From NCBI GenBank assembly GCA_000002445.1, contig CH464491.1:2400001-2464000 (forward strand): a DNA stretch of 64,000 nucleotides. The letters are read 5' to 3'. Positions 9,627 to 50,797 of the stretch are shown here, piece after piece. A program made the translations under genes and the position numbers. Below the pieces are notes generated by a model that was given only the letters and a program-made list of their open reading frames with translations, ran no database searches and was not told the origin of the DNA. Each line of letters opens with the position of its first letter. Position 1 is the stretch's first letter. The stretch is from Trypanosoma brucei. Taxonomy: Eukaryota.

Positions 9627-9655
9627 ACACACACACACACACAGAGAGAGAGAGA
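9627..9655. repeat. (CA)n(GA)n compound microsatellite
   Basis: The run acacacacacacacacagagagagagaga is read directly from the sequence. It lies inside the over-extended 5' part of the EF-G ORF model. Confidence 0.95.
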
Positions 9656-9753: not shown

Positions 9754-12228
9754 ATGAGGATTCCACAGGGAGCAATGAAAGGGTTCCGGTGTGCTCCAAA
9801 TGTACGGTTGGTGGTAGCGCCATCGTGTAGTGCGATTGTTTCGGCACTTCGGTGCCTCACACAGTCTCCCCATCTTTGGTGTTCTCGCTGTTCAACTGGG
9901 CTTAAGGGTGACAAGAGCAAATTCCCAGATGCATCTACAGCACTGATACGAAACATCGGGATAGTTGCACACATCGATGCCGGAAAGACAACAACCACTG
10001 AACGTATGCTTTTTTACGCCGGAGCTGTGAAACGTGTGGGTGATGTGGATAGTGGTACCACCACAATGGATTTTATGAAAGAGGAGATGGACCGTGGAAT
10101 AACCATTCAGTCAGCGGCTGTGTCTTTTCAGTGGCGTGGTCACAGCATCCATCTTATTGACACCCCTGGTCATGTGGACTTTACAGTGGAAGTGGAGCGA
10201 GCCATGCGTGTTGTGGATGGTGTGGTTGCTCTTTTCGATGCGTCCGCTGGTGTTCAGGCCCAGAGTTATACGGTTCTTCGGCAGAGTAAGAAGTTTGGTG
10301 TACCTGTCATAGCTTTCTTGAACAAGATGGACAAGTACAACGCTGATTTTACAAAGTGCGTCAACTCGATTCGAAAAAAGTTGGAAATGGAACCTCTGTT
10401 ACTTCAGCTTCCGCTGAGTCGGGAGGATGGAAGCTTTGACGGGGTAGTTGATGTTGTGGAGCTGAAGAGCTATCGGTTTAGTGGTGACCACGGCTCAAAC
10501 GTCATCGTCGGTGATCTACGAGCGCATCGGAGCGAACCACCTCACGTTGTTGAAGCGGCCCGCGACGCCCGGCACGCCCTCCTCTCCACGTTAACCAGCG
10601 TAGACGACTCACTCGCAGACGCGGTTATCGCAGCGCTTGACGAAACTGGCGGTGACGAACAAAGAGCGGAGGACGCCATACCATGTGATGTACTGCGTGC
10701 GGCCATACGGAGGCAGACACTCCGGCAGAACAACTCACCCCGTCCGGTAATCCCCGTGCTATGTGGTGCATCGCGGCGTGACCAGGGGGTGCAGCCGGTT
10801 CTTGATGCTATCACATATTACTTACCTTCTCCGCAAGATCGTGTGCTCTACGGCTACACGAAGGATGGGGAATTGGTGCAACTGCCACCGGCAACAACCG
10901 CACCGTACGCTCCGTTCTTCGCACTCGCGTTCAAAGTTATCCACACAATGGGGCCCAAAGGTCAGCGGCAACCTTTAGTTTTTTTTCGTGTTTACAGTGG
11001 CCGAATAACAGCGCGAACGACACTTGTGAATAACAGCTCCAACAGTCACGAGAATATCGAAAAGCTTTATGTCATGCACGCAGATCATCAGGTTGAGGTT
11101 CCTCATCTCGCCGCCGGGCACATTGGTGCTGCTTTCATGCGGAACACCAAAACCGGGGCAACACTCTATCGTGAACCGCAACACGCTCAATCTGTAGTTG
11201 CAGGCTGTGGTAAGGAGGTTTTTACGCTTGAAGGTATTGATGCCCCATCACCAGTTATCTCCTTTTCTATTGAGGCCGCATCCAAGCACCAAATTTCCCT
11301 CCTGGAGGAGACACTGCAAGAGCTTAGCTTCGAGGACCCGAGTTTGCGGGTCAGCAGGAACAATTTCGGGCAAATAGTTATCAGTGGTATGGGTGAACTT
11401 CACCTGGAAATTGTTATGTCCAGATTGGAGCATTCGTACGGCCTGAAGTGCCGTCTGCTCCGTGCTATTATCGAATATCGGGAGGTAGTGCGCGAGCCGG
11501 TTGAGCTCAAGAATGTTATTGTAACAAATAACGAAGTTCCATACATTGAGTGCTCACTTAGGTTGCAGCCACTATTAGATGATGAGGGTGTCTGTGGCCC
11601 CAGTGAAGTGTGCTCATTCATTGTGGACGAAGCATTTGCAGGAAGTTTTTTATCATCCTCCGCGAACGAGGGGGGCGGTGACCGACGCCGCCGCATGGAT
11701 GACTGTCGGCGCAATGCTGTGGAAGAGCTGCGACTGATAACTGAGGTATTTAACAAAGCCTTGAGTGAATGCTTCCTCCTGGGGCCACTTGCCGGCCTCC
11801 CGCTTCACGGCGTCCGAGTGGTGTTGACGGGGTTCAGGAGGGTGGCTGCAACACAACTAACAGATCGGCCGCTTGCACAGGCCGCGCGTTCACTTTTACT
11901 TCAGCTCCTTCAGGCGGCACCGAAGACGACTTTGGCTGCGCTTGAACCTATGATGGAGGTGGAGGTGCACCTATCTGAACCCACGTACATTGGCGAGGTA
12001 GTGAGCTCCTTGAATGAGCGCAAGGCGGTTACCGTGGATATCCAGGAGGACGGAAAATCGGTAAGTGCAATCTTACCAATGCGGAACATCGTTCGTTATA
12101 CGATGGAACTGCGGAAGGCTGTGAAGGGACACGCCAACCTTTACGTCCGTTTGCATCATTACCGTACTATTGAGGACAAGGCTGTCCTTTCGAGGATCAT
12201 GAAGAACTTAGGTATATACGACAGTTAA
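9754..12228 (+). CDS. Mitochondrial elongation factor G2 / ribosome-releasing factor 2 (EF-G family translational GTPase)
   Basis: The G domain (GIVAHIDAGKTTTTERM; DTPGHVDFTVEVERAMRVVDG; NKMDK) and the downstream domains align closely in my memory to the GFM2/EF-G2 subfamily (ITIQSAAVSF, LLLQLPLS, GVVDVVELK). The ORF-caller start at 9577 reads through a (CA)n(GA)n microsatellite, so the real start is downstream. ATG 9754 (MRIPQGAMKGF) and ATG 9775 (MKGF) both follow the polypyrimidine tract 9705..9750. The N-terminus is Arg-rich with no acidic residues, consistent with a mitochondrial presequence. Confidence 0.82.
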   Translation: MRIPQGAMKGFRCAPNVRLVVAPSCSAIVSALRCLTQSPHLWCSRCSTGLKGDKSKFPDASTALIRNIGIVAHIDAGKTTTTERMLFYAGAVKRVGDVDSGTTTMDFMKEEMDRGITIQSAAVSFQWRGHSIHLIDTPGHVDFTVEVERAMRVVDGVVALFDASAGVQAQSYTVLRQSKKFGVPVIAFLNKMDKYNADFTKCVNSIRKKLEMEPLLLQLPLSREDGSFDGVVDVVELKSYRFSGDHGSNVIVGDLRAHRSEPPHVVEAARDARHALLSTLTSVDDSLADAVIAALDETGGDEQRAEDAIPCDVLRAAIRRQTLRQNNSPRPVIPVLCGASRRDQGVQPVLDAITYYLPSPQDRVLYGYTKDGELVQLPPATTAPYAPFFALAFKVIHTMGPKGQRQPLVFFRVYSGRITARTTLVNNSSNSHENIEKLYVMHADHQVEVPHLAAGHIGAAFMRNTKTGATLYREPQHAQSVVAGCGKEVFTLEGIDAPSPVISFSIEAASKHQISLLEETLQELSFEDPSLRVSRNNFGQIVISGMGELHLEIVMSRLEHSYGLKCRLLRAIIEYREVVREPVELKNVIVTNNEVPYIECSLRLQPLLDDEGVCGPSEVCSFIVDEAFAGSFLSSSANEGGGDRRRRMDDCRRNAVEELRLITEVFNKALSECFLLGPLAGLPLHGVRVVLTGFRRVAATQLTDRPLAQAARSLLLQLLQAAPKTTLAALEPMMEVEVHLSEPTYIGEVVSSLNERKAVTVDIQEDGKSVSAILPMRNIVRYTMELRKAVKGHANLYVRLHHYRTIEDKAVLSRIMKNLGIYDS

Positions 12229-13366
12229 CAACCATTGATCTAAGTGTTGAGTTATGGGGTTAGCATGCGCATATGGCGGCCTCTTTTTTTTTTTTTGTAA
12301 AGAAAGAAAAAACTGCTGCAGGTAGCGATCGGGGGGCGCTGTAACAACAAAAAAATGTTTGTTAGGCGAAAATAAGGTGCAACATGGCTATTTTTTATTT
12401 TTATCGCTTTGGGAGCGTGGGCATGAGCCACACCACCTTCTCTACGGGATGGCATTGCCGATACAACTTTTGCTGTCTTTGTGTCAAAGTGAATGATTCG
12501 GTTATTCCAGTTTGTCCGCTGTTTTATGATACAGTTGTGGTTGTGAAGTCGGCACTTTTGACAGGGAGGATGCTTTAAAAAGCCCCGGGGGTCATCAGCT
12601 CCCATGAGAATTGCAGTGTGTTGACCCGTCGAATCTCTCATCAGCGTTTTCGTCATTCCCTCAAGTTGAGGTCACGACTCAAGAGTAGTATTGTGTCTAT
12701 TTGTGTAAATTACGATCCATACATGTATGTGCGTAACGGAGGTTTTTACGTTTGATTTTGTTTGAGCTTCCAGTAGTTGTGGGAGTTAAAACCAGCTGGT
12801 TCCCTTAGCTTTGTGCCGTAAGGTTTGCTGGTCTTGCGTCACACTTTATTTTCCACACGCTTTCGTGCCGCTGTTAAGCAGAGATGCCCCACTGTCTCCC
12901 CGCACGGTGTCCTATTCCCCGTTAATGTGTGTTGAACGATCCCCCCGAAAGCCGTTAAATCGGCTTCGGATTACTTATGCCCCTTCGGACAGCTCACTCT
13001 TACCTCCTTTCTTTTTGCCTTTGCTTTGCCGTACTGCATTCCCTGTCCCGTAACGGACTGTCTCTTATCTCCGGTGCGTGGAAGGGGTGAGGGGAATCAG
13101 ATTACAGTTAGTTGCAGTAAGCACGTAGCGTAAGTGCGCAGAGGCCACGTGTTACCGTCAATTGAGCTCAGGATCATTTTTTATCGACGCGAACTTCACC
13201 TAGGATAATCTTGGGCAGGCACTTTTTGTTTCACTTGCTGGACAAAGAAGAATTGTTAAAGAGGAGCTGGCACAGCGACAAAGCAGGAAGAAAGTGAAGG
13301 GAGTCGCTAAATCGCGTCACCTAAGAGACAGAAAGCGGCTCTGCATATACGTGAGCTTGGCGAGGT

Positions 13367-14551
13367 GTGGGTAAAATGCTTGGAGCGAACCTTGGGATTA
13401 ACTTTCACACTGATGACGATCATGGTGATCATGGTGATCACGAGGGCCATGAGGGGCACGACATGGGGGGTTGCGCTCCAGCCGCAGGGTCGTACTCGAT
13501 GGGGCTTCACATTGCAGCCATTTTTATTCTCCTGATCGCGTCATTCCTTGGGACAGTTCTTCCCATTGCCGGGAACTATGTGCCACGATTCAAGCTGCCG
13601 CCGTTTCTTATTGTTGTTTCGAAGTGTATTTCCACAGGTGTTGTTATGTCAGTTGCCGTGTTAACACTGCTCAATCACAGCTTACACAGCTTCATGGAGA
13701 AGTGTATCCCACACGGGCTGAGTATGGAAGTGTACAGCGCTTTCGGCTTGCTGTTTATGCTGATCTCGGCTTTACTGATGCATTCATTCGACTCTGCCAT
13801 GGACCTCCTTCTTGAGGGTTGGGCGGTTCGTAAGGAAGAGGAGAAATTAGCCGACGGCGCACCGCAAGTGGCTGATAGTGTGCCGACGGCGGCGGCTCTT
13901 CCACCAACTCAATGCGGAATGAAGCGTTGCACGGCTCAACCAGGAGTATCATGTGAAACTAACGGCTGCTGCCAATCATCTCCGGGACCTGCGTACGGTG
14001 CTACCGGGTGCTGTGGAAGCCGTGGTGAAGCCGCTGCGCTGCTTACCGGTGCGCGGCGTGTTATGGCCCTAGCCTTAATGGAATTCGGTTTGGTGGTGCA
14101 CAGTATTTTTCTCGGTCTTTCCGTAGGTATTGCATCCGACTCGCGCACCAAAGTGCTGCTTGTGGCTCTTTCCTTCCATCAATTTTTTGAAGGCCTGGCT
14201 TTAGGGGCGCGGTTGGCGGAGGCGTCGCTGAAAGCCAAGTTGGAGTTATTTTTGGCCATCCTCTTTTCCATTTCTGTTCCTGTTGGTACGGCTATCGGTG
14301 CCGTTACCATGAGGGATGGCGGCAAAAGCATTACCGGCTCCAGTTACGTCACTATGAGCGCCATTGTCAATGCCATTGGTGCTGGTATTCTGCTTTACAT
14401 CGGTTTTGTCCTGCTTCTCGTTGATTTCCCAACGGATCTGCGCATATACGCGGGTGTCGGGACGCCGAATCGCTTTGTGAGACGCATTGCAATGTTTGTG
14501 GCCCTTTGGGTTGGCTTCGGTGTGATGGCGCTGCTGTCCAAGTGGCACTAG
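13367..14551 (+). CDS. ZIP-family (Zrt/Irt-like, SLC39) divalent-metal transporter, diverged leading paralogue of the array
   Basis: 394 aa with a His/Asp-rich N-terminus (HGDHGDHEGHEGHD) and multiple TM helices. The ZIP signature in the TM4-TM5 region is HSIFLGLSVGIA...HQFFEGLALGARL. It is roughly 65-70% identical to the downstream copies in conserved blocks, by eye. Confidence 0.85.
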   Translation: MGKMLGANLGINFHTDDDHGDHGDHEGHEGHDMGGCAPAAGSYSMGLHIAAIFILLIASFLGTVLPIAGNYVPRFKLPPFLIVVSKCISTGVVMSVAVLTLLNHSLHSFMEKCIPHGLSMEVYSAFGLLFMLISALLMHSFDSAMDLLLEGWAVRKEEEKLADGAPQVADSVPTAAALPPTQCGMKRCTAQPGVSCETNGCCQSSPGPAYGATGCCGSRGEAAALLTGARRVMALALMEFGLVVHSIFLGLSVGIASDSRTKVLLVALSFHQFFEGLALGARLAEASLKAKLELFLAILFSISVPVGTAIGAVTMRDGGKSITGSSYVTMSAIVNAIGAGILLYIGFVLLLVDFPTDLRIYAGVGTPNRFVRRIAMFVALWVGFGVMALLSKWH

Positions 14552-16333
14552 GTAACGTAACTTTTTATTTACATTAATTTTTTTTCTTCACTCCCCCTAA
14601 CTTTGAGGAGTTGAATATGTTCGCACGTGGGTTAACACGTAACAAATAGTATCGCACGGAAAATGAACTCTTTACCGCGTGAGAGGCGTGTCGTGCTGAA
14701 GCGGACGCATCAGAGAAGAGGAGTAAATAAGCGAGGGATTGAGGGATGTTATGCTCACACGCTGTGTTCTGAGAGGTGGGGGAGAAGGTACTGAATTGGC
14801 ACTAAAATAGCGACGATGCGAAACAAGTAAGAAAATGAATAAGCAAAAGTTTTATGGGCAACGATTTTGAGAAAAAAAAATCAATTGCACAAATAGGCGG
14901 TAACCTCTTTATAGCTCTATCTTTTGAAACCCTATTCGCTAGTTTAGCGTTGCGGGGAAGCCGTCGTACTGATCCTAATCTCCTCACTTCCCTTCCTTCC
15001 CCTTCTATTTGTTTTTATTTACAAAATGATGGAAAGCGGGATGATTTGTTGTTCCTGGTGTGTATTCCTTTTTATTACTTATAATGATATGTTCATCATT
15101 GCTGTTATTAATTCGTTTTTGGTGTCTTATGCTATTTTTACATTTAGGGACTCTCATTTTATTTTTATTTTTTTCGAAGGTGTGTGAGTAACAACACATA
15201 CACAACTCGAGGGACTGAAGCATATCGGCGGGTATTGTATCAAGAAAAATTTTAAATTATTAACAAGCACAACACATCAGTGATGGGTCAAATGCAACGA
15301 AATCAGCGTGAAGGGTGAAATAAATAAATGAATCAAGACCTGAAGAAAACGAAATAGAAAGAGAACAGAAAAGGCAACGAATAAAATGGTGGAATGGAGA
15401 GTGAAAGTAACTTTTACAGAAAGGGAGAAGGGGAAAAGAAGAGATTAATAAAATAGGAAAATGTCGGAGGGAATCGAAGTGGCAGCACCTGAAAGAGACA
15501 GTTTAATATTAGCAGGGAAATCATTACTCATCCAATTCGCAACTCATATTCACGTGGTGAAGTGAGGCCGCGGCTTTGTTGCTATTTCTCTTACTCTTTG
15601 TGTACGTGTGTGTTTATTTTCTACGGCGTCGTTACCGGGGTTAATATCCAAAAGAAGGACTTAGTTTAACGTCATTCTAACAGATAAGTGTAATATTTGG
15701 GAGGAGACATTCTCGTATGTATTTTTGTTTTCCCCCCTTTTTGGCGTTATTTGGTGTCCGCTTGTTGGAGATTTATGTTCCTCATACATTTTTTTTTTTC
15801 AAAAAAAGCCTCAACTTGATAAATGCTCGTCCACGTGTGCCCTCCTTTGCCTTGCCTTATTTTTAACATATCTTTTTCAGTTATTCTTTGAGGTAATCTT
15901 CACAAAGTGGCACAGCAACAAAAAAAGATATATATGTATATATATCTAGCAACTGCATGATAATATTTGACATTGAAAGGTTTCAACCATCCTCAAGAGT
16001 ATATCTTCATACTTTTCCTTCACCCTTAATAAAAATCTCTCACATCCCGCTCCCCCCCGTTCCAAGGAAGAAAAAATTACACAAACACAGACACATTTCT
16101 TCACACAGCACCTACAGTCAAATAATAACAGAGCGGGGAGCTTCTAAGCAAAAGGTCCGACCAAGAAACAACCACAAAAAAAAAGGATTAAGAAATCGAA
16201 AAAATTGAAAAACATATAACTATACGACCAATTTAAAAAAAATAATAATAATTAAATTATGTAATAATAATAAAAATATATAACAACGATTCAGAAATAA
16301 AGAAAAAATATATAAAAAGCAACCAAAAACCAG

Positions 16334-16525
16334 GCGGTCGCCAGTGCTGTGTGTGGTGGGATGCTGCTGTACCTTGCTTTCTGCCTCATGTTGAGTGACT
16401 TCCCATCGGATATGCAGAAACATGCTGGGAAGGATAAGGTAAGGCGTTTCTTCAGATGCTTTGGGATGTTTGCGGCTCTTTGGCTTGGCGCTGCGTTGAT
16501 GGCCGTGTTAGGAAAATGGGTCTAA
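16334..16525 (+). pseudogene. Orphan 3' fragment (last ~64 codons plus stop) of a ZIP transporter gene; array boundary relic
   Basis: Nucleotides 16334..16525 are essentially identical to the 3' ends of the downstream ZIP copies (for example 18606..18797) and encode ...QAVASAVCGGMLLYLAFCLMLSDFPSDMQKHAGKDKVRRFFRCFGMFAALWLGAALMAVLGKWV*. Upstream of 16334 the homology stops abruptly in A/T-rich low-complexity DNA. There is no start codon or N-terminal part. Confidence 0.65.
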
Positions 16526-17460
16526 GCACCCACTGTTCATGTGTGTGCCAATGGATTGCCCACTTCATTTTCTGTTTTCCTCGTACTCTTTTTCCAGCCC
16601 CCTTTTTCAGTTGTAATGATGCTCCCGCACGTGTGTTGCGTGGTCCGGTGAGCCATTGTGCCCTACCTGTTGCATGCGTTAGAGTTGTTCTTGAGGTGTG
16701 CTTGTGCATGTACATACATATATGTATATGTATATATACGTGTGTGTGTTTCTTGAGCTAGCGCCGAGTTGGGAGTGAGAGGAGTTGTGCTCTTCGTGTG
16801 TGCGTAGGTTTGAGCGTATGCGGACTGAGTGTCGGATGTTTAGCGGTGCGAAGCATAAGCAATTGCTCACGTGTTTGTATGCGTGTGTGTTGCGTACATG
16901 TTTCCAAACATCTACCCTGCCTTCAGGAGGGACCTGCACGAGTACATACATGAGCATATGTGCTGTGTTTACGCTTGTCCTTGATTTAGTTACAATATAC
17001 AACTGCGTACATCTACATTTTACTACTTTATGTTCGTTTGTTCATTTATTAGTATTTTTAAATAGCAATGCCCACCATCCTCGTAGTTACTCTACCGTGC
17101 TGGTGCGGGGGACGAAGCTGCAGACGCGTGGTGTACGAATATATGCATGCGTATGGATGTGTGTGCATGTGTTTCTGTGTGCGTCAATGCGCGTTTGAGT
17201 GTCTGCCTGCGCGTATATTTAAATAGTGATTTAGCGGATATCTGACTGTAGAGGGTACGACGGACGGGCTTATTTTCCACATGAGACTATTTCTTCCCCT
17301 GCTTTCTTTCTGTGCTGGTGCTGGTGCTGGTGTGTGTCTGTGTGTGCGCAGTTGTGGATGGGATGGTGGCAAATGTATCGCATTGCTGCTGTTCCCATCC
17401 CTTAGTGCCCCATTGTTTCTGCACGCTCTCGCTAAGCATTCCTTCTTACCCTTTTTGCCC

Positions 17461-17528
17461 ATTGATTCTTTTTCTATGTTTGCCGTCCCTTTTTCACCTT
17501 TTTCTTTTTGGTGTGTGTAGATACCATA
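17461..17528 (+). promoter_or_regulatory. Polypyrimidine tract plus AG: probable spliced-leader trans-splice acceptor region for the downstream ZIP copy (recurs before each array copy)
   Basis: A T/C-rich run (ttgattctttttctatgtttgccgtccctttttcacctttttctttttggtgtgtgtag) is followed by an AG about 85 nt upstream of ATG 17613. The same block recurs at 19733..19800, 21775..21852 and 23812..23889. In trypanosomatids such tracts direct trans-splicing (established knowledge). The exact acceptor is not determinable without RNA data. Confidence 0.5.
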
Positions 17529-17612
17529 AAGTGACAGTCAGGTTTCGGTTGGTGCTGCCTTAGCTAATCTCAGCAAAAACACACTTCCTCTTTTTGTGAT
17601 ACAGTCAGAGCG

Positions 17613-18797
17613 ATGGCTAACGTTAATAACGAGACCACCGAATGTGGTGCATTGCTTTCGAATATCACTTCCCTACAGACGACGCTAACGTCTATGGGAT
17701 GCCAAGTGCCCGCCTTGCATCATCACACGCATGACCACGGCCACCATCACCATCATCATCATCATGACGATCACACCCACGGAGCGGACGACCACGAAGG
17801 TCACGGGCACAGTCACGGCGGGTGCGAAAGTGGTCATGGCACGTATTCCATTGGACTGCATGTTGTGGCGATCTTTGTTGTGTTGATTGCGTCGTTTCTG
17901 GGCACGCTGATACCGATAATCGGAAAGTACGTGCCGGCACTGCGGCTTCCTCCGTTTGTGTTTGTCCTTGGCAAGTGCATTGCAGCTGGAGTGCTACTGT
18001 CAGTGTCGACTATCCACATGATTAATGAAGCTGTAGCGCAGCTACAGGAAGATTGTGTTCCGGAGTCGTTTCGCGAATCATATGAGGCATATGCATTTCT
18101 GTTTGCTGTGGCTGGAGCGTTGCTGTTGCACATGGTGGACGTCATTGTTGACGCACGTGTGACAAACAAGAGCGATTCCAGCACCAACAAACCTGAGGGT
18201 CAACCCGATGCCGAAGAAGCTCAAGCGGCCCCGGCTGCTCTTGATGCGTACGATGGTCATCACTGCCACTACGCTGTCGGCATGCCACAGTCGAGGACCA
18301 GACGCCTCGTCTCTGCAATGTTTATGGAGTTTGCGGTAACTGTGCACAGTGTGTTCATTGGGCTGGCAGTCGGTATCGCAAGGGATGCGGAGACTAAAAC
18401 TTTACTTGTGGCTCTGGCATTTCATCAGATGTTGGAGGGCCTTGCTCTGGGCGCGCGTCTGGTGGATGCAGAGTTGAGCTTGAAGCTTGAAATGCTGTTT
18501 GCACTACTCTTCTCTGTCTCTGCGCCCCTGGGCACCGCAATTGCCGTTGGCACGATTGCGATTTGGAATGTGTCGATGGTAGGAACCGCGTTCGTGATTA
18601 CACAGGCGGTCGCCAGTGCTGTGTGTGGTGGGATGCTGCTGTACCTTGCTTTCTGCCTCATGTTGAGTGACTTCCCATCGGATATGCAGAAACATGCTGG
18701 GAAGGATAAGGTAAGGCGTTTCTTCAGATGCTTTGGGATGTTTGCGGCTCTTTGGCTTGGCGCTGCGTTGATGGCCGTGTTAGGAAAATGGGTCTAA
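17613..18797 (+). CDS. ZIP-family metal transporter, array copy (long His-rich N-terminal segment)
   Basis: 394 aa. It has the ZIP signature HSVFIGLAVGIARDAETKTLLVALAFHQMLEGLALGARL and the N-terminal HHHTHDHGHHHHHHHHDDHTHGADDHEGHGHSHGG segment. The N-terminus also carries N-x-T/S sites (NETT, NIT), consistent with an extracellular N-terminus. Confidence 0.88.
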   Translation: MANVNNETTECGALLSNITSLQTTLTSMGCQVPALHHHTHDHGHHHHHHHHDDHTHGADDHEGHGHSHGGCESGHGTYSIGLHVVAIFVVLIASFLGTLIPIIGKYVPALRLPPFVFVLGKCIAAGVLLSVSTIHMINEAVAQLQEDCVPESFRESYEAYAFLFAVAGALLLHMVDVIVDARVTNKSDSSTNKPEGQPDAEEAQAAPAALDAYDGHHCHYAVGMPQSRTRRLVSAMFMEFAVTVHSVFIGLAVGIARDAETKTLLVALAFHQMLEGLALGARLVDAELSLKLEMLFALLFSVSAPLGTAIAVGTIAIWNVSMVGTAFVITQAVASAVCGGMLLYLAFCLMLSDFPSDMQKHAGKDKVRRFFRCFGMFAALWLGAALMAVLGKWV

Positions 18798-19884
18798 GCA
18801 CCCACTGTTCATGTGTGTGCCAATGGATTGCCCACTTCATTTTCTGTTTTCCTCGTACTCTTTTTCCAGCCCCCTTTTTCAGTTGTAATGATGCTCCCGC
18901 ACGTGTGTTGCGTGGTCCGGTGAGCCATTGTGCCCTACCTGTTGCATGCGTTAGAGTTGTTCTTGAGGTGTGCTTGTGCATGTACATACATATATGTATA
19001 TGTATATATACGTGTGTGTGTTTCTTGAGCTAGCGCCGAGTTGGGAGTGAGAGGAGTTGTGCTCTTCGTGTGTGCGTAGGTTTGAGCGTATGCGGACTGA
19101 GTGTCGGATGTTTAGCGGTGCGAAGCATAAGCAATTGCTCACGTGTTTGTATGCGTGTGTGTTGCGTACATGTTTCCAAACATCTACCCTGCCTTCAGGA
19201 GGGACCTGCACGAGTACATACATGAGCATATGTGCTGTGTTTACGCTTGTCCTTGATTTAGTTACAATATACAACTGCGTACATCTACATTTTACTACTT
19301 TATGTTCGTTTGTTCATTTATTAGTATTTTTAAATAGCAATGCCCACCATCCTCGTAGTTACTCTACCGTGCTGGTGCGGGGGACGAAGCTGCAGACGCG
19401 TGGTGTACGAATATATGCATGCGTATGGATGTGTGTGCATGTGTTTCTGTGTGCGTCAATGCGCGTTTGAGTGTCTGCCTGCGCGTATATTTAAATAGTG
19501 ATTTAGCGGATATCTGACTGTAGAGGGTACGACGGACGGGCTTATTTTCCACATGAGACTATTTCTTCCCCTGCTTTCTTTCTGTGCTGGTGCTGGTGCT
19601 GGTGTGTGTCTGTGTGTGCGCAGTTGTGGATGGGATGGTGGCAAATGTATCGCATTGCTGCTGTTCCCATCCCTTAGTGCCCCATTGTTTCTGCACGCTC
19701 TCGCTAAGCATTCCTTCTTACCCTTTTTGCCCATTGATTCTTTTTCTATGTTTGTCGTCCCTTTTTCACCTTTTTCTTTTTGGTGTGTGTAGATACCATA
19801 AAGTGACAGTCAGGTTTCGGTTGGTGCTGCCTTAGCTAATCTCAGCAAAAACACACTTCCTCTTTTTGTGATACAGTCAGAGCG

Positions 19885-21069
19885 ATGGCTAACGTTAATA
19901 ACGAGACCACCGAATGTGGTGCATTGCTTTCGAATATCACTTCCCTACAGACGACGCTAACGTCTATGGGATGCCAAGTGCCCGCCTTGCATCATCACAC
20001 GCATGACCACGGCCACCATCACCATCATCATCATCATGACGATCACACCCACGGAGCGGACGACCACGAAGGTCACGGGCACAGTCACGGCGGGTGTGAA
20101 AGTGGTCATGGCACGTATTCCATTGGACTGCATGTTGTGGCGATCTTTGTTGTGTTGATTGCGTCGTTTCTGGGCACGCTGATACCGATAATCGGAAAGT
20201 ACGTGCCGGCACTGCGGCTTCCTCCGTTTGTGTTTGTCCTTGGCAAGTGCATTGCAGCTGGAGTGCTACTGTCAGTGTCGACTATCCACATGATTAATGA
20301 AGCTGTAGCGCAGCTACAGGAAGATTGTGTTCCGGAGTCGTTTCGCGAATCATATGAGGCATATGCATTTCTGTTTGCTGTGGCTGGAGCGTTGCTGTTG
20401 CACATGGTGGACGTCATTGTTGACGCACGTGTGACAAACAAGAGCGATTCCAGCACCAACAAACCTGAGGGTCAACCCGATGCCGAAGAAGCTCAAGCGG
20501 CCCCGGCCGCTCTTGATGCGTACGATGGTCATCACTGCCACTACGCTGTCGGCATGCCACAGTCGAGGACCAGACGCCTCGTCTCTGCAATGTTTATGGA
20601 GTTTGCGGTAACTGTGCACAGTGTGTTCATTGGGCTGGCAGTCGGTATCGCAAGGGATGCGGAGACCAAAACTTTACTTGTGGCTCTGGTTTTTCATCAG
20701 ATGTTGGAGGGCCTTGCTCTGGGCGCGCGTCTGGTGGATGCAGAGTTGAGCTTGAAGCTTGAAATGCTGTTTGCACTACTCTTCTCTGTCTCTGCGCCCC
20801 TGGGCACCGCAATTGCCGTTGGCACGATTGCGATTTGGAATGTGTCGATGGTAGGAACCGCGTTCGTGATTACACAGGCGGTCACCAGTGCTGTGTGTGG
20901 TGGGATGCTGCTGTACCTTGCTTTCTGCCTCATGTTGAGTGACTTCCCATCGGATATGCAGAAACATGCTGGGAAGGATAAGGTAAGGCGTTTCTTCAGA
21001 TGCTTTGGGATGTTTGCGGCTCTTTGGTTTGGCGCTGCGTTAATGGCCTTTATCGGAAAGTGGATCTAA
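19885..21069 (+). CDS. ZIP-family metal transporter, array copy (mosaic: N-terminus as previous copy, C-terminus as following copies)
   Basis: 394 aa and more than 98% identical to 17613..18797. It differs at the C-terminus (WFGAALMAFIGKWI versus WLGAALMAVLGKWV), which matches copies 21955 and 23992 instead. Confidence 0.88.
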   Translation: MANVNNETTECGALLSNITSLQTTLTSMGCQVPALHHHTHDHGHHHHHHHHDDHTHGADDHEGHGHSHGGCESGHGTYSIGLHVVAIFVVLIASFLGTLIPIIGKYVPALRLPPFVFVLGKCIAAGVLLSVSTIHMINEAVAQLQEDCVPESFRESYEAYAFLFAVAGALLLHMVDVIVDARVTNKSDSSTNKPEGQPDAEEAQAAPAALDAYDGHHCHYAVGMPQSRTRRLVSAMFMEFAVTVHSVFIGLAVGIARDAETKTLLVALVFHQMLEGLALGARLVDAELSLKLEMLFALLFSVSAPLGTAIAVGTIAIWNVSMVGTAFVITQAVTSAVCGGMLLYLAFCLMLSDFPSDMQKHAGKDKVRRFFRCFGMFAALWFGAALMAFIGKWI

Positions 21070-21954
21070 GCACCCACTGTTCATGTGTGTGCCAATGGAT
21101 TGCCCACTTCATTTTCTGTTTTCCTCGTACTCTTTTTCCAGCCCCCTTTTTCAGTTGTAATGATGCTCCCGCACGTGTGTTGCGTGGTCCGGTGAGCCAT
21201 TGTGCCCTACCTGTTGCATGCGTTAGAGTTGTTCTTGAGGTGTGCTTGTGCATGTACATACATATATGTATATGTATATATACGTGTGTGTGCTTAGTAC
21301 ATGTTTCCAAACATCTACCCTGCCTTCAGGAGGGACCCGCACGAGTACATACATGAGCAAATGTGCTCCGTTTTTTTGTTTTATAACATACAACTGTACT
21401 ACAAAGTTCAACTCAGTATACCTAAATTTCAGTGTTTTTTTTATTGTCAACGTTTTTTTCTCGTTTTAGCAATGCCCACCATCCTCGTTGTTACTCTACC
21501 GTGCTGGTGCGGGGGACGAAGCTGCAGACGCGTGGTGTACGAATATATGCATGCGTATGGATGTGTGTGCATGTGTTTCTGTGTGCGTCAATGCGCGTTT
21601 GAGTGTCTGCCTGCGCGTATATTTAAATAGTGATTTAGCGGATATCTGACTGTAGAGGGTACGACGGACGGGCTTATTTTTTACATCATATTTGTAGTCG
21701 TTTTTGTCGTTTTTCAATTATTTTTTGTTTTTTAAAAATATTCTTACAACATTTGTGTCTATGTACGCTCTCGCTAAGCATTCCTTCTTACCCTTTTTGC
21801 CCATTGATTCTTTTTCTATGTTTGCCGTCCCTTTTTCACCTTTTTCTTTTTGGTGTGTGTAGATACCATAAAGTGACAGTCAGGTTTCGGTTGGTGCTGC
21901 CTTAGCTAATCTCAGCAAAAACACACTTCCTCTTTTTGTGATACAGTCAGAGCG

Positions 21955-23106
21955 ATGGCTAACGTTAATAACGAGACCACCGAATGTGGTGCATTGCTTT
22001 CGAATATCACTTCCCTACAGACGACGCTAACGTCTATGGGATGCCAAGTGCCCGTCTTGCATCATCATCATCGTGACAATCACACCCACGGAGTGGTCGA
22101 CGATGGAATTGATGGAGACACTCACGGCGGGTGTGAAAGTGGTCATGGCACGTATTCCATTGGACTGCATGTTGTGGCGATCTTTGTTGTGTTGATTGCG
22201 TCGTTTCTGGGCACGCTGATACCGATAATCGGAAAGTACGTGCCGGCACTGCGGCTTCCTCCGTTTGCGCTTGTCCTTGGCAAGTGCATTGCAGCTGGAG
22301 TGCTACTGTCAGTGTCGACTATCCACATGATTAATGAATCTATTTTACAGCTACAGGAAGATTGTGTTCCGGAGTCGTTTCGCGAATCATATGAGGCATA
22401 TGCATTTCTGTTTGCTGTGGCTGGAGCGTTGTTAATGCAGATGGTGGACGTAATTGTGGATAAATATGTGACAAATAAGAGCGATTCCAGCACCAACAAA
22501 CCTGAGGGTCAACCCGATGCCGAAGAAGCTCAAGCGGCCCCGGCTGCTCTTGATGCGTACGATGGTCATCACTGCCACTACGCTGTCGGCATGCCACAGT
22601 CGAGGACTAAACGTCTCGTCGCTGCAATGTTTATGGAGTTTGCGGTAACTGTGCACAGTGTGTTTGTCGGGCTGGCAGTCGGTATCGCAAGGGATGCGGA
22701 GACCAAAACTTTACTTGTGGCTCTGGTTTTTCATCAGATGTTGGAGGGCCTTGCTCTGGGTGCGCGTCTGGTGGATGCAGAGTTGAGCTTGAAGCTTGAA
22801 ATGCTGTTTGCACTACTCTTCTCTGTCTCTGCGCCCCTGGGCACCGCAATTGCCGTTGGCACGATTGCGATTTGGAATGTGTCGATGGTAGGAACCGCGT
22901 TCGTGATTACACAGGCGGTCACCAGTGCTGTGTGTGGTGGGATGCTGCTGTACCTTGCTTTCTGCCTCATGTTGAGTGACTTCCCATCGGATATGCAGAA
23001 ACATGCTGGGAAGGATAAGGTAAGGCGTTTCTTCAGATGCTTTGGGATGTTTGCGGCTCTTTGGTTTGGCGCTGCGTTAATGGCCTTTATCGGAAAGTGG
23101 ATCTAA
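21955..23106 (+). CDS. ZIP-family metal transporter, array copy (short His-rich N-terminal segment)
   Basis: 383 aa. The N-terminal metal-binding stretch is shortened to HHHHRDNHTHGVVDDGIDGDTHGG. The cytosolic loop variant is LLMQMVDVIVDKYVTNK. The rest is near-identical to the other copies. Confidence 0.88.
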   Translation: MANVNNETTECGALLSNITSLQTTLTSMGCQVPVLHHHHRDNHTHGVVDDGIDGDTHGGCESGHGTYSIGLHVVAIFVVLIASFLGTLIPIIGKYVPALRLPPFALVLGKCIAAGVLLSVSTIHMINESILQLQEDCVPESFRESYEAYAFLFAVAGALLMQMVDVIVDKYVTNKSDSSTNKPEGQPDAEEAQAAPAALDAYDGHHCHYAVGMPQSRTKRLVAAMFMEFAVTVHSVFVGLAVGIARDAETKTLLVALVFHQMLEGLALGARLVDAELSLKLEMLFALLFSVSAPLGTAIAVGTIAIWNVSMVGTAFVITQAVTSAVCGGMLLYLAFCLMLSDFPSDMQKHAGKDKVRRFFRCFGMFAALWFGAALMAFIGKWI

Positions 23107-23991
23107 GCACCCACTGTTCATGTGTGTGCCAATGGATTGCCCACTTCATTTTCTGTTTTCCTCGTACTCTTTTTCCAGCCCCCTTTTTCAGTTGTAATGA
23201 TGCTCCCGCACGTGTGTTGCGTGGTCCGGTGAGCCATTGTGCCCTACCTGTTGCATGCGTTAGAGTTGTTCTTGAGGTGTGCTTGTGCATGTACATACAT
23301 ATATGTATATGTATATATACGTGTGTGTGCTTAGTACATGTTTCCAAACATCTACCCTGCCTTCAGGAGGGACCTGCACGAGTACATACATGAGCAAATG
23401 TGCTCCGTTTTTTTGTTTTATAACATACAACTGTACTACAAAGTTCAACTCAGTATACCTAAATTTCAGTGTTTTTTTTATTGTCAACGTTTTTTTCTCG
23501 TTTTAGTAATGCCCACCATCCTCGTTGTTACTCTACCGTGCTGGTGCGGGGGACGAAGCTGCAGACGCGTGGTGTACGAATATATGCATGCGTATGGATG
23601 TGTGTGCATGTGTTTCTGTGTGCGTCAATGCGCGTTTGAGTGTCTGCCTGCGCGTATATTTAAATAGTGATTTAGCGGATATCTGACTGTAGAGGGTACG
23701 ACGGACGGGCTTATTTTTTACATCATATTTGTAGTCGTTTTTGTCGTTTTTCAATTATTTTTTGTTTTTTAAAAATATTCTTACAACATTTGTGTCTATG
23801 TACGCTCTCGCTAAGCATTCCTTCTTACCCTTTTTGCCCATTGATTCTTTTTCTATGTTTGCCGTCCCTTTTTCACCTTTTTCTTTTTGGTGTGTGTAGA
23901 TACCATAAAGTGACAGTCAGGTTTCGGTTGGTGCTGCCTTAGCTAATCTCAGCAAAAACACACTTCCTCTTTTTGTGATACAGTCAGAGCG

Positions 23992-25155
23992 ATGGCTAAC
24001 GTTAATAACGAGACCACCGAATGTGGTGCATTGCTTTCGAATATCACTTCCCTACAGACGACGCTAACGTCTATGGGATGCCAAGTGCCCGCCTTGCATC
24101 ATCATCATCGTGACAATCACACCCACGGAGTGGTCGACGATGGAATTGATGGAGACACTCACGGCGGGTGTGAAAGTGGTCATGGCACGTATTCCATTGG
24201 ACTGCATGTTGTGGCGATCTTTGTTGTGTTGATTGCGTCGTTTCTGGGCACGCTGATACCGATAATCGGAAAGTACGTGCCGGCACTGCGGCTTCCTCCG
24301 TTTGCGCTTGTCCTTGGCAAGTGCATTGCAGCTGGAGTGCTACTGTCAGTGTCGACGATCCACATGATTAATGAATCTATTTTACAGCTACAGGAAGATT
24401 GTGTTCCGGAGTCGTTTCGCGAATCATATGAGGCATATGCATTTCTGTTTGCTGTGGCTGGAGCGTTGCTGTTGCACATGGTGGACGTCCTTTCTGGTTT
24501 TTGTGTTCGTCGGGATGAAATGGTTTATAGTGATACTTCGGCAGTTGTTCCGCATGAGGTTATCGATGCCGAAGAAGCTCAAGCGGCCCCGGCTGCTCTT
24601 GATGCGTACGATGGTCATCACTGCCACTACGCTGTCGGCATGCCACAGTCGAGGACTAAACGTCTTTTTTCTGCAATGTTTATGGAGTTTGCGGTAACTG
24701 TGCACAGTGTGTTTGTCGGGCTGGCAGTCGGTATCGCAAGGGATGCGGAGACCAAAACTTTACTTGTGGCTCTGGTTTTTCATCAGATGTTGGAGGGCCT
24801 TGCTCTGGGCGCGCGTCTGGTGGATGCAGAGTTGAGCTTGAAGCTTGAAATGCTGTTTGCACTACTCTTCTCTGTCTCTGCGCCCCTGGGCACCGCAATT
24901 GCCGTTGGCACGATTGCGATTTGGAATGTGTCGATGGTAGGAACCGCGTTCGTGATTACACAGGCGGTCACCAGTGCTGTGTGTGGTGGGATGCTGCTGT
25001 ACCTTGCTTTCTGCCTCATGTTGAGTGACTTCCCATCGGATATGCAGAAACATGCTGGGAAGGATAAGGTAAGACGTTTCTTCAGATGCTTTGGGATGTT
25101 TGCGGCTCTTTGGCTTGGCGCTGCGTTAATGGCCTTTATTGGAAAATGGATCTAA
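23992..25155 (+). CDS. ZIP-family metal transporter, terminal array copy with replaced cytosolic-loop segment
   Basis: 387 aa, with the same short His segment as 21955. Nucleotides 24489..24564 (76 nt) replace the 64-nt segment of the other copies in frame, giving LSGFCVRRDEMVYSDTSAVVPHEV instead of IVDxxVTNKSDSSTNKPEGQP. The reading frame is maintained. Confidence 0.85.
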   Translation: MANVNNETTECGALLSNITSLQTTLTSMGCQVPALHHHHRDNHTHGVVDDGIDGDTHGGCESGHGTYSIGLHVVAIFVVLIASFLGTLIPIIGKYVPALRLPPFALVLGKCIAAGVLLSVSTIHMINESILQLQEDCVPESFRESYEAYAFLFAVAGALLLHMVDVLSGFCVRRDEMVYSDTSAVVPHEVIDAEEAQAAPAALDAYDGHHCHYAVGMPQSRTKRLFSAMFMEFAVTVHSVFVGLAVGIARDAETKTLLVALVFHQMLEGLALGARLVDAELSLKLEMLFALLFSVSAPLGTAIAVGTIAIWNVSMVGTAFVITQAVTSAVCGGMLLYLAFCLMLSDFPSDMQKHAGKDKVRRFFRCFGMFAALWLGAALMAFIGKWI

Positions 25156-25194
25156 ATCTAAATTGTTTTGTGAATTTGTGTATATTTTAAATTC

Positions 25195-25292
25195 CTGTTT
25201 TTTTCTTTGTCTTTTTCTTTGTCTTTTTCTATGTTGCTTTTTTTTTTTGTTTTTCTTTTTTGTTTTTTTTTTAATGTTAGGTTTTTTATTGT
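25195..25292 (+). promoter_or_regulatory. Long T-rich polypyrimidine tract upstream of PDCD5 start
   Basis: About 95 nt of T/C (ttcctgtttttttctttgtctttttctttgtctttttctatgttgctttttttttttgtttttcttttttgtttttttttt) lies immediately before the AG/ATG at 25298. It also serves as the poly(A)-site determinant for the upstream ZIP copy under the coupled processing model (established knowledge). Confidence 0.5.
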
Positions 25293-25297
25293 CCACT

Positions 25298-25639
25298 ATG
25301 TCCCGTGTCCCTATTAGCGAAGAACAGGCACAACAGTTGCTGATGAAGCAACAAGCGCAGGAGGAAAAGCAGGAAGCAATGAGAGAACAGAAAGAAAGTA
25401 TTTTGCGCGCCGTTGTGTCTGCTGAAGGAAGGGAACGCCTGACCCGACTGAGTCAGGTGAAAGCTGATCGTGCAACAGCTGTGGAATCTTATATCATACA
25501 AGCTGTTCGCCAAGGCAAGCTACAACCGCCCGTTTCTGATGAAATGGTGCGGGAAATTCTTGAACAAATGTCTTCTCAGTCAGCGGAATCCAAGAGCAAT
25601 ATTGTGTTTGCCCGGAAACGCATGGATGACGATTGGTGA
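25298..25639 (+). CDS. PDCD5: PDCD5/TFAR19-family small dsDNA-binding protein
   Basis: 113 aa (MSRVPISEEQAQQLLMKQQ...ILRAVVSAEGRERLTRLSQVKADRATAVESYIIQAVRQGKL...IVFARKRMDDDW). It aligns along its length with the PDCD5 consensus as I remember it ([41 protein letters not shown]...). The ORF-caller model at 25139 starts inside a T-rich polypyrimidine tract (25195..25290). I choose ATG 25298 after that tract. Confidence 0.7.
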   Translation: MSRVPISEEQAQQLLMKQQAQEEKQEAMREQKESILRAVVSAEGRERLTRLSQVKADRATAVESYIIQAVRQGKLQPPVSDEMVREILEQMSSQSAESKSNIVFARKRMDDDW

Positions 25640-26454
25640 TTGGTTGTTTGGTCGTTTGGTTGGTGGCGTACATTTCTGTTTTATTAGGATTTTAATTTTG
25701 TAGTCTTTCTTAAGGTTTGTGTCCCCTATGTCTGGGTTTCATTTTTTTTTTTTACCCGACGAACTGTGCTGATGTCTCATGCTTTTGGGAATTCTTTTAG
25801 GTAATTATTCTGCTGATTTATTAGATAATGTTCCACGTCGTTGTTTCCCTCGTCCCTTACCACTTCTATTCTCTGCATCCCTCCATTGTGTTTCGTGGTT
25901 ATTCACTTATTTGCGTGTTAAGGTGGTAGTAGTTTTTTTTTCGGTTTGTTTTGTGGTTCAGGGTGTTGCCTGCATCCGTGCACTGGTGTGATGTGATTCG
26001 CGTGTGGTTGTGGGCTTGTGGATTGAAGGTGTGACAGAGTGGTGTTTTGCGTCCCGCTGCTTTTTATGTGTCTGCGTTGGACCATGCAGCTCTTTTATTT
26101 CTTGTGGTGGGGGCTGATGTCGGAAGGAAGCTGCCGTTTCTCGTTTCGAACCGGGCTTTGAGAGAGGCCGGGGCGCTGGTGTGGAATGAAGTGTTCTGGT
26201 GTTCTTTGGGACCTGCAAGATACCAAGAGGAGTGCGGCTGTGTTAATTCGCACTTAATTATTACTGTTTCTTAAGCTAGTTTTGTACAGGGTCACTTGCT
26301 GTTGCGTTTAAACGGTATTTGAACTCTCCTTTTCTGATCGTACATATTCATGGGAAGGGGAGGGGCGCTGAGAGAATCGTATTTGAGGTAATAGAAAGTG
26401 GTGAAGTGAAGGAAGCAGGAAAATACAGCGGAAAAACAGAGAGAGCGCTTAATA

Positions 26455-50766: not shown

Positions 50767-50797
<31 letters not shown>
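50767..50797. repeat. (AT)15 microsatellite
   Basis: The run atatatatatatatatatatatatatatat is in the spacer 50189..51203. Confidence 0.95.

What the first reader, a model, noticed from the sequence alone, without database searches (positions are those of the whole stretch)
13367..25155. Tandem array of ZIP-family metal transporters: one diverged leader, an orphan 3' fragment and four near-identical mosaic copies
Five complete ZIP (Zrt/Irt-like) transporter genes occupy about 12 kb head-to-tail. The first (13367..14551) is a clearly diverged paralogue. It is followed by 1.8 kb of unusual A/T-rich DNA and an orphan 3' end (16334..16525), then four copies on 2272-bp and 2037-bp repeat units. 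The near-identity of units, flanking spacer included, indicates ongoing concerted evolution by gene conversion or unequal crossover. That also makes the copy number in this assembly unreliable: such arrays are frequently collapsed or expanded. Amplified metal transporters are a known route to dosage control in trypanosomatids, which lack transcriptional regulation. The metal specificity (Zn versus Fe versus Mn) of these copies is not established by anything in the sequence.
Basis: partly seen in the sequence, partly recalled or inferred. Interest (0 to 1): 0.6.

Follow-up and report, generated by a model that had tools for sequence, protein, structure and literature searches.

The report
Known trypanosome zinc-transporter gene array

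Summary
The four array proteins exactly match T. b. brucei TREU927 proteins EAN79853-56. By their order these are Tb927.11.9000-9030, and the diverged leader is Tb927.11.8990. A 2026 NAR paper (PMC13569496) names them TbZIP3 and TbZIP3a. It shows that ZIP3 mRNA responds to zinc, not iron, through GU-repeat motifs in its 3'-UTR and the nuclear PIN/zinc-knuckle protein ZNK1. It also reports 5 genes in the '927' assembly against 16 in Lister 427. My additions: the array has two unit types. Type A has a 1087-bp inter-CDS with six GU blocks in the first 888 nt and a long His-rich N-terminus. Type B has an 885-bp inter-CDS with three blocks and a short His tract. A terminal copy has a swapped loop segment and no GU motif. 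The orphan fragment carries a full A-type UTR and is conserved in T. b. gambiense and T. b. equiperdum. The number of A units differs between assemblies. T. vivax and T. melophagium have the same leader-plus-array layout. Verdict: already known, low interest.

The parts
13376..14551 (+). TbZIP3a (Tb927.11.8990), the diverged leader ZIP paralogue. The ORF tool starts it at GTG 13367; the first ATG is 13376.
   Evidence: Pfam PF02535 E 3.3e-42. About 40-41% aa identity to the array copies. The DAL972 orthologue is called at 391 aa. Named in PMC13569496.
14552..16330 (+). AT-rich spacer (GC 0.36). It presumably holds the ZIP3a 3'-UTR plus intergenic DNA. It has one GU block (at +1055) and polypyrimidine tracts at 14978-15016 and 15720-15743.
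   Evidence: Conserved at 98.4-98.5% in T. b. equiperdum and DAL972. No ZIP remnant and no other copy in the window.
16331..16525 (+). Orphan 3' end of a ZIP3 CDS (last 64 codons plus stop). This is the left edge of the repeat array.
   Evidence: 100% identical to 18603-18797. Present at the same junction in DAL972 and T. b. equiperdum at 99.5%. Absent from T. vivax.
16526..17612 (+). Type-A inter-CDS (1087 bp) after the orphan. It is a complete ZIP3 3'-UTR plus the splice-acceptor region of copy 1. GUGUGUG(U/C) blocks lie at +16, +215, +271, +358, +634, +805 and +986.
   Evidence: Six blocks lie within the first 888 nt, matching the six motifs in the 888-b 3'-UTR reported in PMC13569496. The paper's reporter used a 1082-bp inter-CDS.
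17613..18797 (+). ZIP3 copy 1 (EAN79853; Tb927.11.9000 by order), 394 aa, long His-rich N-terminus.
   Evidence: AF2 model with 8 long helices; the top 9 PDB matches are all BbZIP.
18798..19884 (+). Type-A inter-CDS. This is the only full six-block 3'-UTR attached to a complete gene in this assembly.
   Evidence: Differs from 16526-17612 at one position, 17483 C vs 19755 T. Same GU blocks.
19885..21069 (+). ZIP3 copy 2 (EAN79854; Tb927.11.9010), 394 aa. The 5' part is type A and the 3' end is type B.
21070..21954 (+). Type-B inter-CDS (885 bp). It lacks 142 bp after +223 and 63 bp near the A-type +805 block. GU blocks lie at +16, +215, +494 and +784.
21955..23106 (+). ZIP3 copy 3 (EAN79855; Tb927.11.9020), 383 aa, short His tract (11 codons fewer).
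23107..23991 (+). Type-B inter-CDS, second copy.
23992..25155 (+). ZIP3 copy 4 (EAN79856; Tb927.11.9030), 387 aa, the terminal variant.
   Evidence: The same variant ends the array in DAL972 and T. b. equiperdum.
24489..24563 (+). A 75-bp segment unique to copy 4. It replaces 63 bp that encode part of the TM3-TM4 loop.
   Evidence: The query 24471-24580, which includes this segment, matches the terminal copy at 100% in T. b. equiperdum and 99% in DAL972.
25156..25297 (+). Right edge of the array. There are 36 nt, then an 82-nt polypyrimidine/(TTTTTC)n tract (25192-25273), an AG at 25279 and the next gene's ATG at about 25298. It has no GU motif.
16740..16749 (+). The (GU)5 run at +215. It recurs at 19012-19021, and as 9 nt at 21284-21292 and 23321-23329. 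By position it corresponds to the motif whose replacement (MUT3) abolished zinc control in the published reporter. It forms the 3' arm of a predicted hairpin.
   Evidence: PMC13569496 section on GU repeats. The correspondence to MUT3 is my inference: +215 falls in the third 75-bp block after the stop, and it is the only five-repeat run.

Best explanation
The region is the TbZIP3a gene plus the TbZIP3 tandem array of Trypanosoma brucei brucei TREU927 chromosome 11 (Tb927.11.8990 to Tb927.11.9030). The genes encode eight-helix ZIP/SLC39-type divalent-metal importers. The array copies act as the parasite's regulated zinc uptake system. All genes lie in one + strand polycistron, so the amount of mRNA depends on two things. 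One is the number of gene copies, which changes by unequal crossover and is homogenised by gene conversion. The other is zinc-dependent mRNA decay: when zinc is replete, the nuclear PIN/zinc-knuckle protein ZNK1 destroys ZIP3 mRNA through GU-repeat motifs in the 3'-UTR. Shown here: the anatomy, family membership, mosaic structure, motif counts and differences between assemblies. Shown in the literature: the zinc response, 3'-UTR dependence, ZNK1 dependence and zinc accumulation. Inferred: the array in this assembly mixes three regulatory grades, namely A-type UTRs with six GU blocks, B-type UTRs with three, and a terminal copy with none. I infer that the A-type units are the ones that expand between strains.
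For: Pfam ZIP hits for all five genes. The AF2 model has eight long helices and its nine best PDB matches are all BbZIP. H245/S246 and H271/Q272/E275 are invariant in 22 homologues. The four array proteins match TREU927 proteins EAN79853-56 exactly, on a 5.26-Mb record. PMC13569496 reports: ZIP3 mRNA rises more than 4-fold on zinc chelation and is reversed by Zn but not Fe; the reporter half-life is about 20 min in zinc; znk1 nulls have 7-9-fold more ZIP3 mRNA and more than 4-fold more cellular zinc with iron unchanged; there are six GU motifs per 888-b 3'-UTR; and there are 5 genes in 927 against 16 in 427. In the window, 22 of 32 GUGUGUG(U/C) blocks lie in the 8.8-kb array, all in inter-CDS DNA and none in a CDS. 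Six fall within the first 888 nt of the A-type inter-CDS. Units are 97.9-99.4% identical including non-coding DNA, and variant patterns are mosaic. T. b. equiperdum has 7 A-type and 3 B-type inter-CDS with the same two edges. T. vivax and T. melophagium have the same leader-plus-array layout. T. vivax lies between the same flanking genes and has GU blocks in its internal spacers.
Against: Nothing in the sequence contradicts this. Caveats: transport of zinc by TbZIP3 has been inferred from knockdown and knockout phenotypes, not from a direct uptake assay. The mapping of EAN accessions to Tb927 gene IDs rests on gene order and the paper's description. I assigned poly(A) and splice sites from polypyrimidine tracts and the published 888-b UTR length, not from RNA data. 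The published reporter used the 427 A-type inter-CDS, so nothing is known directly about the B-type UTR.
Confidence: 0.92

Rival explanations
1. The four-copy count is an under-assembly: the real TREU927 array is longer, and the A/B order seen here is partly a product of collapsing near-identical units.
For: PMC13569496 says tandem arrays are assembled more reliably in the 427 genome and counts 16 genes there against 5 in 927. T. b. equiperdum has 10 array copies. The two A units are 99.4% identical over 2.7 kb, which is hard to resolve with short clones. The DAL972 assembly has an irregular A-type spacer and two proteins flagged 'LOW QUALITY'.
Against: The difference could be true strain variation. 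Both array edges and the A-to-B transition are the same in three assemblies. No read data are available here to decide.
Confidence: 0.4
2. The copies are not redundant dosage units but subfunctionalised paralogues. Types A, B and terminal differ in the extracellular His-rich N-terminus, the cytosolic loop and the 3'-UTR. Selection would maintain them as high-gain zinc-regulated, weakly regulated and constitutive importers.
For: Differing codons between types are mostly non-synonymous (c1 vs c3: 29 non-synonymous, 14 synonymous). They cluster in the N-terminal His tract, the TM2-3 loop, the TM3-4 loop and the C-terminus. The terminal variant and the short-His type are conserved in DAL972 and T. 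b. equiperdum. GU block counts are 6, 3 and 0. In 427, the diverged paralogues ZIP3a-c rise less than 2-fold in znk1 nulls, against 9-fold for ZIP3.
Against: Raw codon counts are not a dN/dS test. Clustered differences could equally reflect relaxed constraint in disordered regions (pLDDT below 50 at residues 29-67 and 190-224). No functional data separate the types. I infer, but have not checked, that 927 copies 3 and 4 correspond to 427 ZIP3b and ZIP3c.
Confidence: 0.3
3. The array encodes iron (LIT1-like) or broad-specificity transporters rather than zinc importers.
For: ZIP proteins often carry several divalent metals. Sequence alone does not fix specificity, and some sources annotate the Leishmania relatives as 'iron/zinc transporter'.
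Against: ZIP3 mRNA responds to zinc, and iron does not reverse the TPEN effect. The znk1 nulls accumulate zinc but not iron. The paper reports the array as the closest T. brucei relative of the zinc importer LiZIP3, at a syntenic locus.
Confidence: 0.05

Closest known systems
TbZIP3 / TbZIP3a locus of T. brucei (Tb927.11.8990-9030; Tb427_110096500-110098000), as described in PMC13569496
   Same: It is this locus: the array proteins match TREU927 exactly. It has the same leader-plus-array layout and the same six GU motifs within an 888-nt 3'-UTR.
   Different: Nothing differs in kind. The 927 assembly has 4 array copies against 15 in 427. In 927 only one complete gene carries the full six-block UTR, two carry a shortened three-block UTR and one carries none.
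Leishmania infantum LiZIP3 (LINF_280025700-800), a zinc-regulated zinc importer
   Same: The paper reports it as the syntenic orthologue. Its mRNA is also down-regulated by zinc, and its putative 3'-UTR also has GU-repeat motifs.
   Different: It has fewer gene copies and three motifs per UTR according to the paper. The Leishmania ZIPs found are 36-37% identical over 82-86% of the query; which of them is LiZIP3 was not determined.
Leishmania LIT1 and T. cruzi TcIT (ZIP-family iron transporters)
   Same: Same ZIP family and fold.
   Different: They are reported iron transporters and are included in the paper's phylogeny alongside the ZIP3 group. The T. brucei array responds to zinc, not iron.
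BbZIP (Bordetella bronchiseptica ZIP; PDB 5TSA and related entries)
   Same: It is the best structural match of the model (probability 1.00, TM-score normalised to target 0.47-0.70).
   Different: Only 13-17% identity, and no match by sequence search. BbZIP has no counterpart of the N-terminal His-rich extension or the long disordered TM3-4 loop in the aligned region.
Other concerted-evolution tandem arrays of trypanosomatids (tubulin, hexose transporter THT1/THT2 and similar; from general knowledge)
   Same: Head-to-tail copies in one polycistron, homogenised coding and spacer DNA, copy number that varies between strains, and different 3'-UTRs giving different regulation within one array.
   Different: The cargo and the trans-acting regulator (ZNK1) are specific to this array.

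Membership tests
ZIP / SLC39 metal transporter family (Pfam PF02535) | Full-length match to the family HMM above the curated cut-off | tested here: met
   All five proteins score 145-164 bits against a cut-off of 35.1, covering profile positions 2-322 of 323.
ZIP / SLC39 metal transporter family (Pfam PF02535) | Eight-transmembrane-helix ZIP fold | tested here: met
   The AF2 model (pLDDT 77, pTM 0.69) has eight long helices at 80-106, 114-144, 157-189, 228-255, 258-285, 290-318, 325-361 and 369-393. The nine top PDB matches are all BbZIP entries with probability 1.00.
ZIP / SLC39 metal transporter family (Pfam PF02535) | Conserved His/Glu metal-site motifs on the fourth and fifth helices (HSxxxG and HQxxEG in the ZRT/IRT-like subgroup; from general knowledge of the family) | tested here: met
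   H245, S246, G250, H271, Q272, E275 and G276 are invariant across 22 homologues. They fall in model helices 228-255 and 258-285. All four array copies and ZIP3a keep them.
ZIP / SLC39 metal transporter family (Pfam PF02535) | Transport of a divalent metal into the cytosol | not testable with these tools
   Only indirect published evidence exists. ZIP3 RNAi mimics zinc depletion, and znk1 nulls that over-express ZIP3 hold more than 4-fold more zinc.
ZNK1-controlled ZIP3 mRNAs (PMC13569496) | Several GUGUGUG(U/C) motifs in the 3'-UTR | tested here: met
   The A-type inter-CDS has six blocks in the first 888 nt. The B-type has three in the equivalent part. This is met for copies 1-3 and for the orphan. 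It is not met for copy 4 (none) or ZIP3a (one, at +1055).
ZNK1-controlled ZIP3 mRNAs (PMC13569496) | Zinc- and ZNK1-dependent mRNA turnover | not testable with these tools
   Shown experimentally for the 427 A-type inter-CDS and for ZIP3 transcripts. The B-type UTR has not been tested.
Tandem array under concerted evolution | Paralogous units, non-coding spacer included, more alike within the genome than expected for old duplicates | tested here: met
   A-A units are 99.4% identical over 2692 bp and B-B units 97.9% over 2429 bp, spacers included.
Tandem array under concerted evolution | Mosaic variant patterns (conversion tracts) between units | tested here: met
   Copy 2 switches from A-type 5' to B-type 3'. 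Copy 4 is B-type at its 5' end but carries A-type bases at 24469-24477 and at two sites near its 3' end. Copy 3 has private variants at 22432-22440.
Tandem array under concerted evolution | Copy number differs between strains while the array edges stay fixed | tested here: met
   927 has 2 A plus 2 B inter-CDS, DAL972 has 3 A plus 1 B, and T. b. equiperdum has 7 A plus 3 B. The orphan and the terminal copy are the same in all three. 427 has 16 genes. Assembly error cannot be separated from true variation here.

The most novel reading that the evidence does not exclude
The orphan 3' CDS fragment (16331-16525) with its intact six-motif ZIP3 3'-UTR (16526 to about 17413) is conserved at the same junction in three T. 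brucei subspecies. It may not be inert. It could be spliced from a polypyrimidine/AG site inside the AT-rich spacer, or read through as a distal 3'-UTR of ZIP3a. Either would yield a ZNK1-targeted non-coding RNA, or a zinc-responsive ZIP3a isoform, that buffers ZNK1 activity. More broadly, the array may be a graded regulator: six-, three- and zero-motif UTRs would give different zinc gain, and strains would tune the response by changing the number of A units.
Probability: 0.1. Interest if true: 0.45.

Novelty: already known. Interest (0 to 1): 0.15.

Why it matters
Zinc uptake is essential and toxic in excess. Trypanosomes cannot regulate these genes by transcription, so this locus is their main adjustable zinc gate. 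That story has already been published. The remaining value is practical. The reference '927' assembly probably under-represents the array, and it carries heterogeneous 3'-UTRs. Expression, RNAi or CRISPR analyses mapped to it will therefore mis-assign reads and may blur differences between A-type, B-type and terminal copies.

Tried and rejected
Sequence searches of the PDB found nothing, either with copy 1 alone or with a 22-sequence profile. The fold search was needed to reach BbZIP.

The Rfam scan of 12200-26500 at E up to 1 gave only sub-threshold 'mir-297', 'mir-3149' and 'sno_ZL1' matches. They score 18-31 bits against gathering scores of 64-100, and they come from the AU/GU-rich hairpin and a repeated spacer segment. 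I rejected them as noise.

I searched the AT-rich spacer for a decayed ZIP gene with tblastn. It gave one 30-residue match at E 0.03, which I treat as chance. I also looked for another copy of the spacer in the window and found none. So it is neither a dispersed repeat within this window nor a recognisable pseudogene.

The paper's supplementary tables (UTR sequences, phylogeny) are not held. I therefore could not confirm the correspondence of 927 copies 3 and 4 to 427 ZIP3b and ZIP3c.

The 2018 8-hydroxynaphthyridine paper (PMC6105827) concerns Golgi ZnT-type transporters, not this locus.

I considered an assembly artefact of a single gene and rejected it, because independent assemblies of two other subspecies and two other species show arrays.

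Full report
OBSERVATION

The window carries five ZIP ORFs on the + strand: 13367-14551, 17613-18797, 19885-21069, 21955-23106 and 23992-25155. Each matches Pfam PF02535 over essentially the whole profile, at 145-164 bits against a curated cut-off of 35.1.

Self-comparison confirms the repeat structure:
- 16331-19020 matches 18603-21292 at 99.4% over 2692 bp (offset 2272).
- 20023-22451 matches 22060-24488 at 97.9% without gaps (offset 2037).
- The array starts abruptly at 16331 with the last 195 bp of a ZIP CDS, identical to the 3' end of copy 1.

The DNA between the leader and this orphan (14552-16330) has GC 0.36, in a window that averages about 0.50.

- The orphan starts at 16331, not 16334.
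- The leader's first ATG is 13376, and the DAL972 orthologue is called at 391 aa.
- The copies are near-identical only within a unit type. Protein identity is c1-c2 98.5%, c3-c4 93%, c1-c4 84-86%, and leader against array about 40%.

IDENTITY

The four array proteins are exact matches to T. brucei brucei TREU927 proteins EAN79853 to EAN79856, on a 5.26-Mb record. All large ORFs in the window are on the + strand apart from one that overlaps them, as expected for a trypanosome polycistron.

A 2026 paper (PMC13569496) describes this locus:
- The tandem cluster Tb927.11.9000-9030 is TbZIP3, the syntenic orthologue of the Leishmania zinc importer LiZIP3.
- The preceding diverged gene Tb927.11.8990 is TbZIP3a.
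- The ZIP3-like array has five genes in '927' and sixteen in Lister 427, where arrays are said to be assembled more reliably.

FAMILY MEMBERSHIP

Beyond Pfam, an AlphaFold2 model of copy 1 (pLDDT 77) has eight long helices. Its nine best PDB matches are all structures of the bacterial BbZIP, each with probability 1.00. Sequence-only PDB searches found nothing.

H245/S246/G250 and H271/Q272/E275/G276 are invariant in 22 homologues. They lie on the fourth and fifth helices of the model. From general knowledge of the family, this is where the ZIP metal site sits.

The N-terminal 70 residues and the TM3-4 loop are predicted to be disordered. Most differences between the copies fall in these regions.

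ANATOMY OF THE ARRAY

Aligning the units in register shows two unit types.
- Type A has a 1087-bp inter-CDS (16526-17612 and 18798-19884). Its 5' CDS has 11 extra codons in a His-rich tract.
- Type B has an 885-bp inter-CDS (21070-21954 and 23107-23991). It lacks 142 bp after +223 and 63 bp near the A-type +805 block. Its middle is only about 86% identical to A. Its 5' CDS has a short His tract.

The order along the array is:
- orphan (A-type 3' end), then A spacer;
- copy 1, then A spacer;
- copy 2 (A-type 5', B-type 3'), then B spacer;
- copy 3, then B spacer;
- copy 4.

Copy 4 is B-type at its 5' end. It carries A-type bases at 24469-24477 and has a private 75-bp replacement at 24489-24563 that recodes part of the cytosolic loop. 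It ends in unique DNA. These mosaic patterns are what gene conversion and unequal crossover produce.

REGULATORY MOTIFS

The paper's motif is GUGUGUG(U/C), clustered into blocks 40 bp apart. Applying the same rule here gives the following:
- Seven blocks in each A spacer. Six lie within the first 888 nt, which equals the six motifs in the 888-b 3'-UTR reported for 427.
- Four blocks in each B spacer, three of them in the UTR-equivalent part.
- One block far downstream of ZIP3a.
- None after copy 4 and none in any CDS.

Of the 32 blocks in the 64-kb window, 22 lie in the 8.8-kb array.

The (GU)5 run at +215 is the only five-repeat run, and it lies in the third 75-bp block after the stop codon. 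It therefore corresponds, by my inference, to the motif whose replacement abolished zinc control in the published reporter. It is kept in both spacer types and forms the 3' arm of a predicted hairpin.

Copy 4 is followed after 36 nt by the 82-nt polypyrimidine tract of the next gene. Its 3'-UTR must therefore be very short.

In this assembly, then, one complete gene has the full six-block UTR, two have a three-block UTR and one has none. The orphan also carries a full six-block UTR.

COMPARISON WITH OTHER GENOMES

T. b. gambiense DAL972 has the same leader, spacer (98.5% identical), orphan and terminal copy, but three A spacers and one B spacer.

T. b. equiperdum (GCA_003543875.1) has seven A and three B spacers. 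That makes seven long-His copies, two short-His copies and the terminal variant, ten array genes in all, again with identical edges.

The tandem structure is therefore real. The orphan is at least as old as the T. brucei group, and it is the number of A units that differs most.

T. vivax has a diverged leader and four tandem copies between the same flanking genes. Its leader is followed by an AT-rich spacer with no motif, and each internal spacer has three GU blocks. It has no orphan fragment. T. melophagium has a leader plus seven copies.

MECHANISM

Published experiments show the following:
- ZIP3 mRNA rises more than 4-fold when zinc is chelated. Zinc reverses this; iron does not.
- The inter-CDS confers this behaviour on a reporter.
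- ZNK1 knockout raises ZIP3 mRNA 7-9-fold and cellular zinc more than 4-fold, without changing iron.
- ZIP3a-c change less than 2-fold.

The most likely account is therefore a zinc importer array whose output is set by copy number and by ZNK1-mediated, GU-motif-dependent mRNA decay. The graded behaviour of A, B and terminal copies is my inference from motif counts and has not been tested.

RIVALS
- The four-copy count may be an under-assembly. I give this about 0.4 and cannot decide it without reads.
- The unit types may be subfunctionalised paralogues rather than redundant copies (about 0.3). Non-synonymous codon differences outnumber synonymous ones by about 2 to 1, but they sit in disordered regions.
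- An iron-transporter reading is contradicted by the published data (about 0.05).

VERDICT

The locus is annotated and has been characterised functionally, so it is already known and of low interest as a discovery. The residual points worth a specialist's glance are the heterogeneous 3'-UTRs within the reference array and the conserved orphan fragment with a complete regulatory UTR.

One correction to my notebook: I did not verify the strain label of the T. b. equiperdum assembly.

Noticed in passing
window 25156-25297: Copy 4's stop codon is followed after 36 nt by an 82-nt polypyrimidine/(TTTTTC)n tract (25192-25273), an AG at 25279 and the ATG of the next gene at about 25298. That gene encodes a PDCD5-like protein with Pfam dsDNA_bind in the orthologous loci. 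The terminal ZIP3 copy must therefore have an unusually short 3'-UTR.
   Followed up: partly
window 14978-15016 and 15720-15743: Two polypyrimidine tracts, followed by AG at 15035 and 15769, lie inside the AT-rich spacer. They could act as splice acceptors. If so, they would set the end of the ZIP3a 3'-UTR and allow a transcript that carries the orphan fragment.
   Followed up: no
L005 7658-17858 (T. vivax) and L006 639-15567 (T. melophagium): Both species have the same layout of a diverged leader plus a tandem ZIP array. T. vivax has an AT-rich spacer (GC 0.38) with no motif after the leader and three GU blocks in each internal spacer. T. melophagium has one GU block per spacer in most spacers, and the leader's downstream spacer is 99.5% identical to the array's.
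   Followed up: partly
L001 13458-14699 (T. b. gambiense DAL972): The third A-type spacer is irregular: its first 186 bp are followed by a 100-bp break and then a restart at position 123. The two downstream proteins are flagged 'LOW QUALITY PROTEIN'. This suggests assembly problems inside the DAL972 array.
   Followed up: no
window 16456-17198, repeated at 18728-19470; related ORFs at 21000-21630 and 23037-23667: ORFs of 101-137 aa recur in every inter-CDS spacer on both strands. They are repeated only because the spacer is repeated, they are rich in Cys/Val from GU-rich DNA, and they are not genes.
   Followed up: partly
window 46001-46084: An 18-bp tandem repeat (2.7-4.4 copies) lies at the 3' end of the ORF 43793-46102. 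It would encode a short acidic peptide repeat.
   Followed up: no
window 50768-50797 and 9626-9643: An (AT)15 microsatellite, and the only (AC)n run of 8 nt or more in the window. The (AC)9 run lies upstream of the mitochondrial EF-G-like gene.
   Followed up: no
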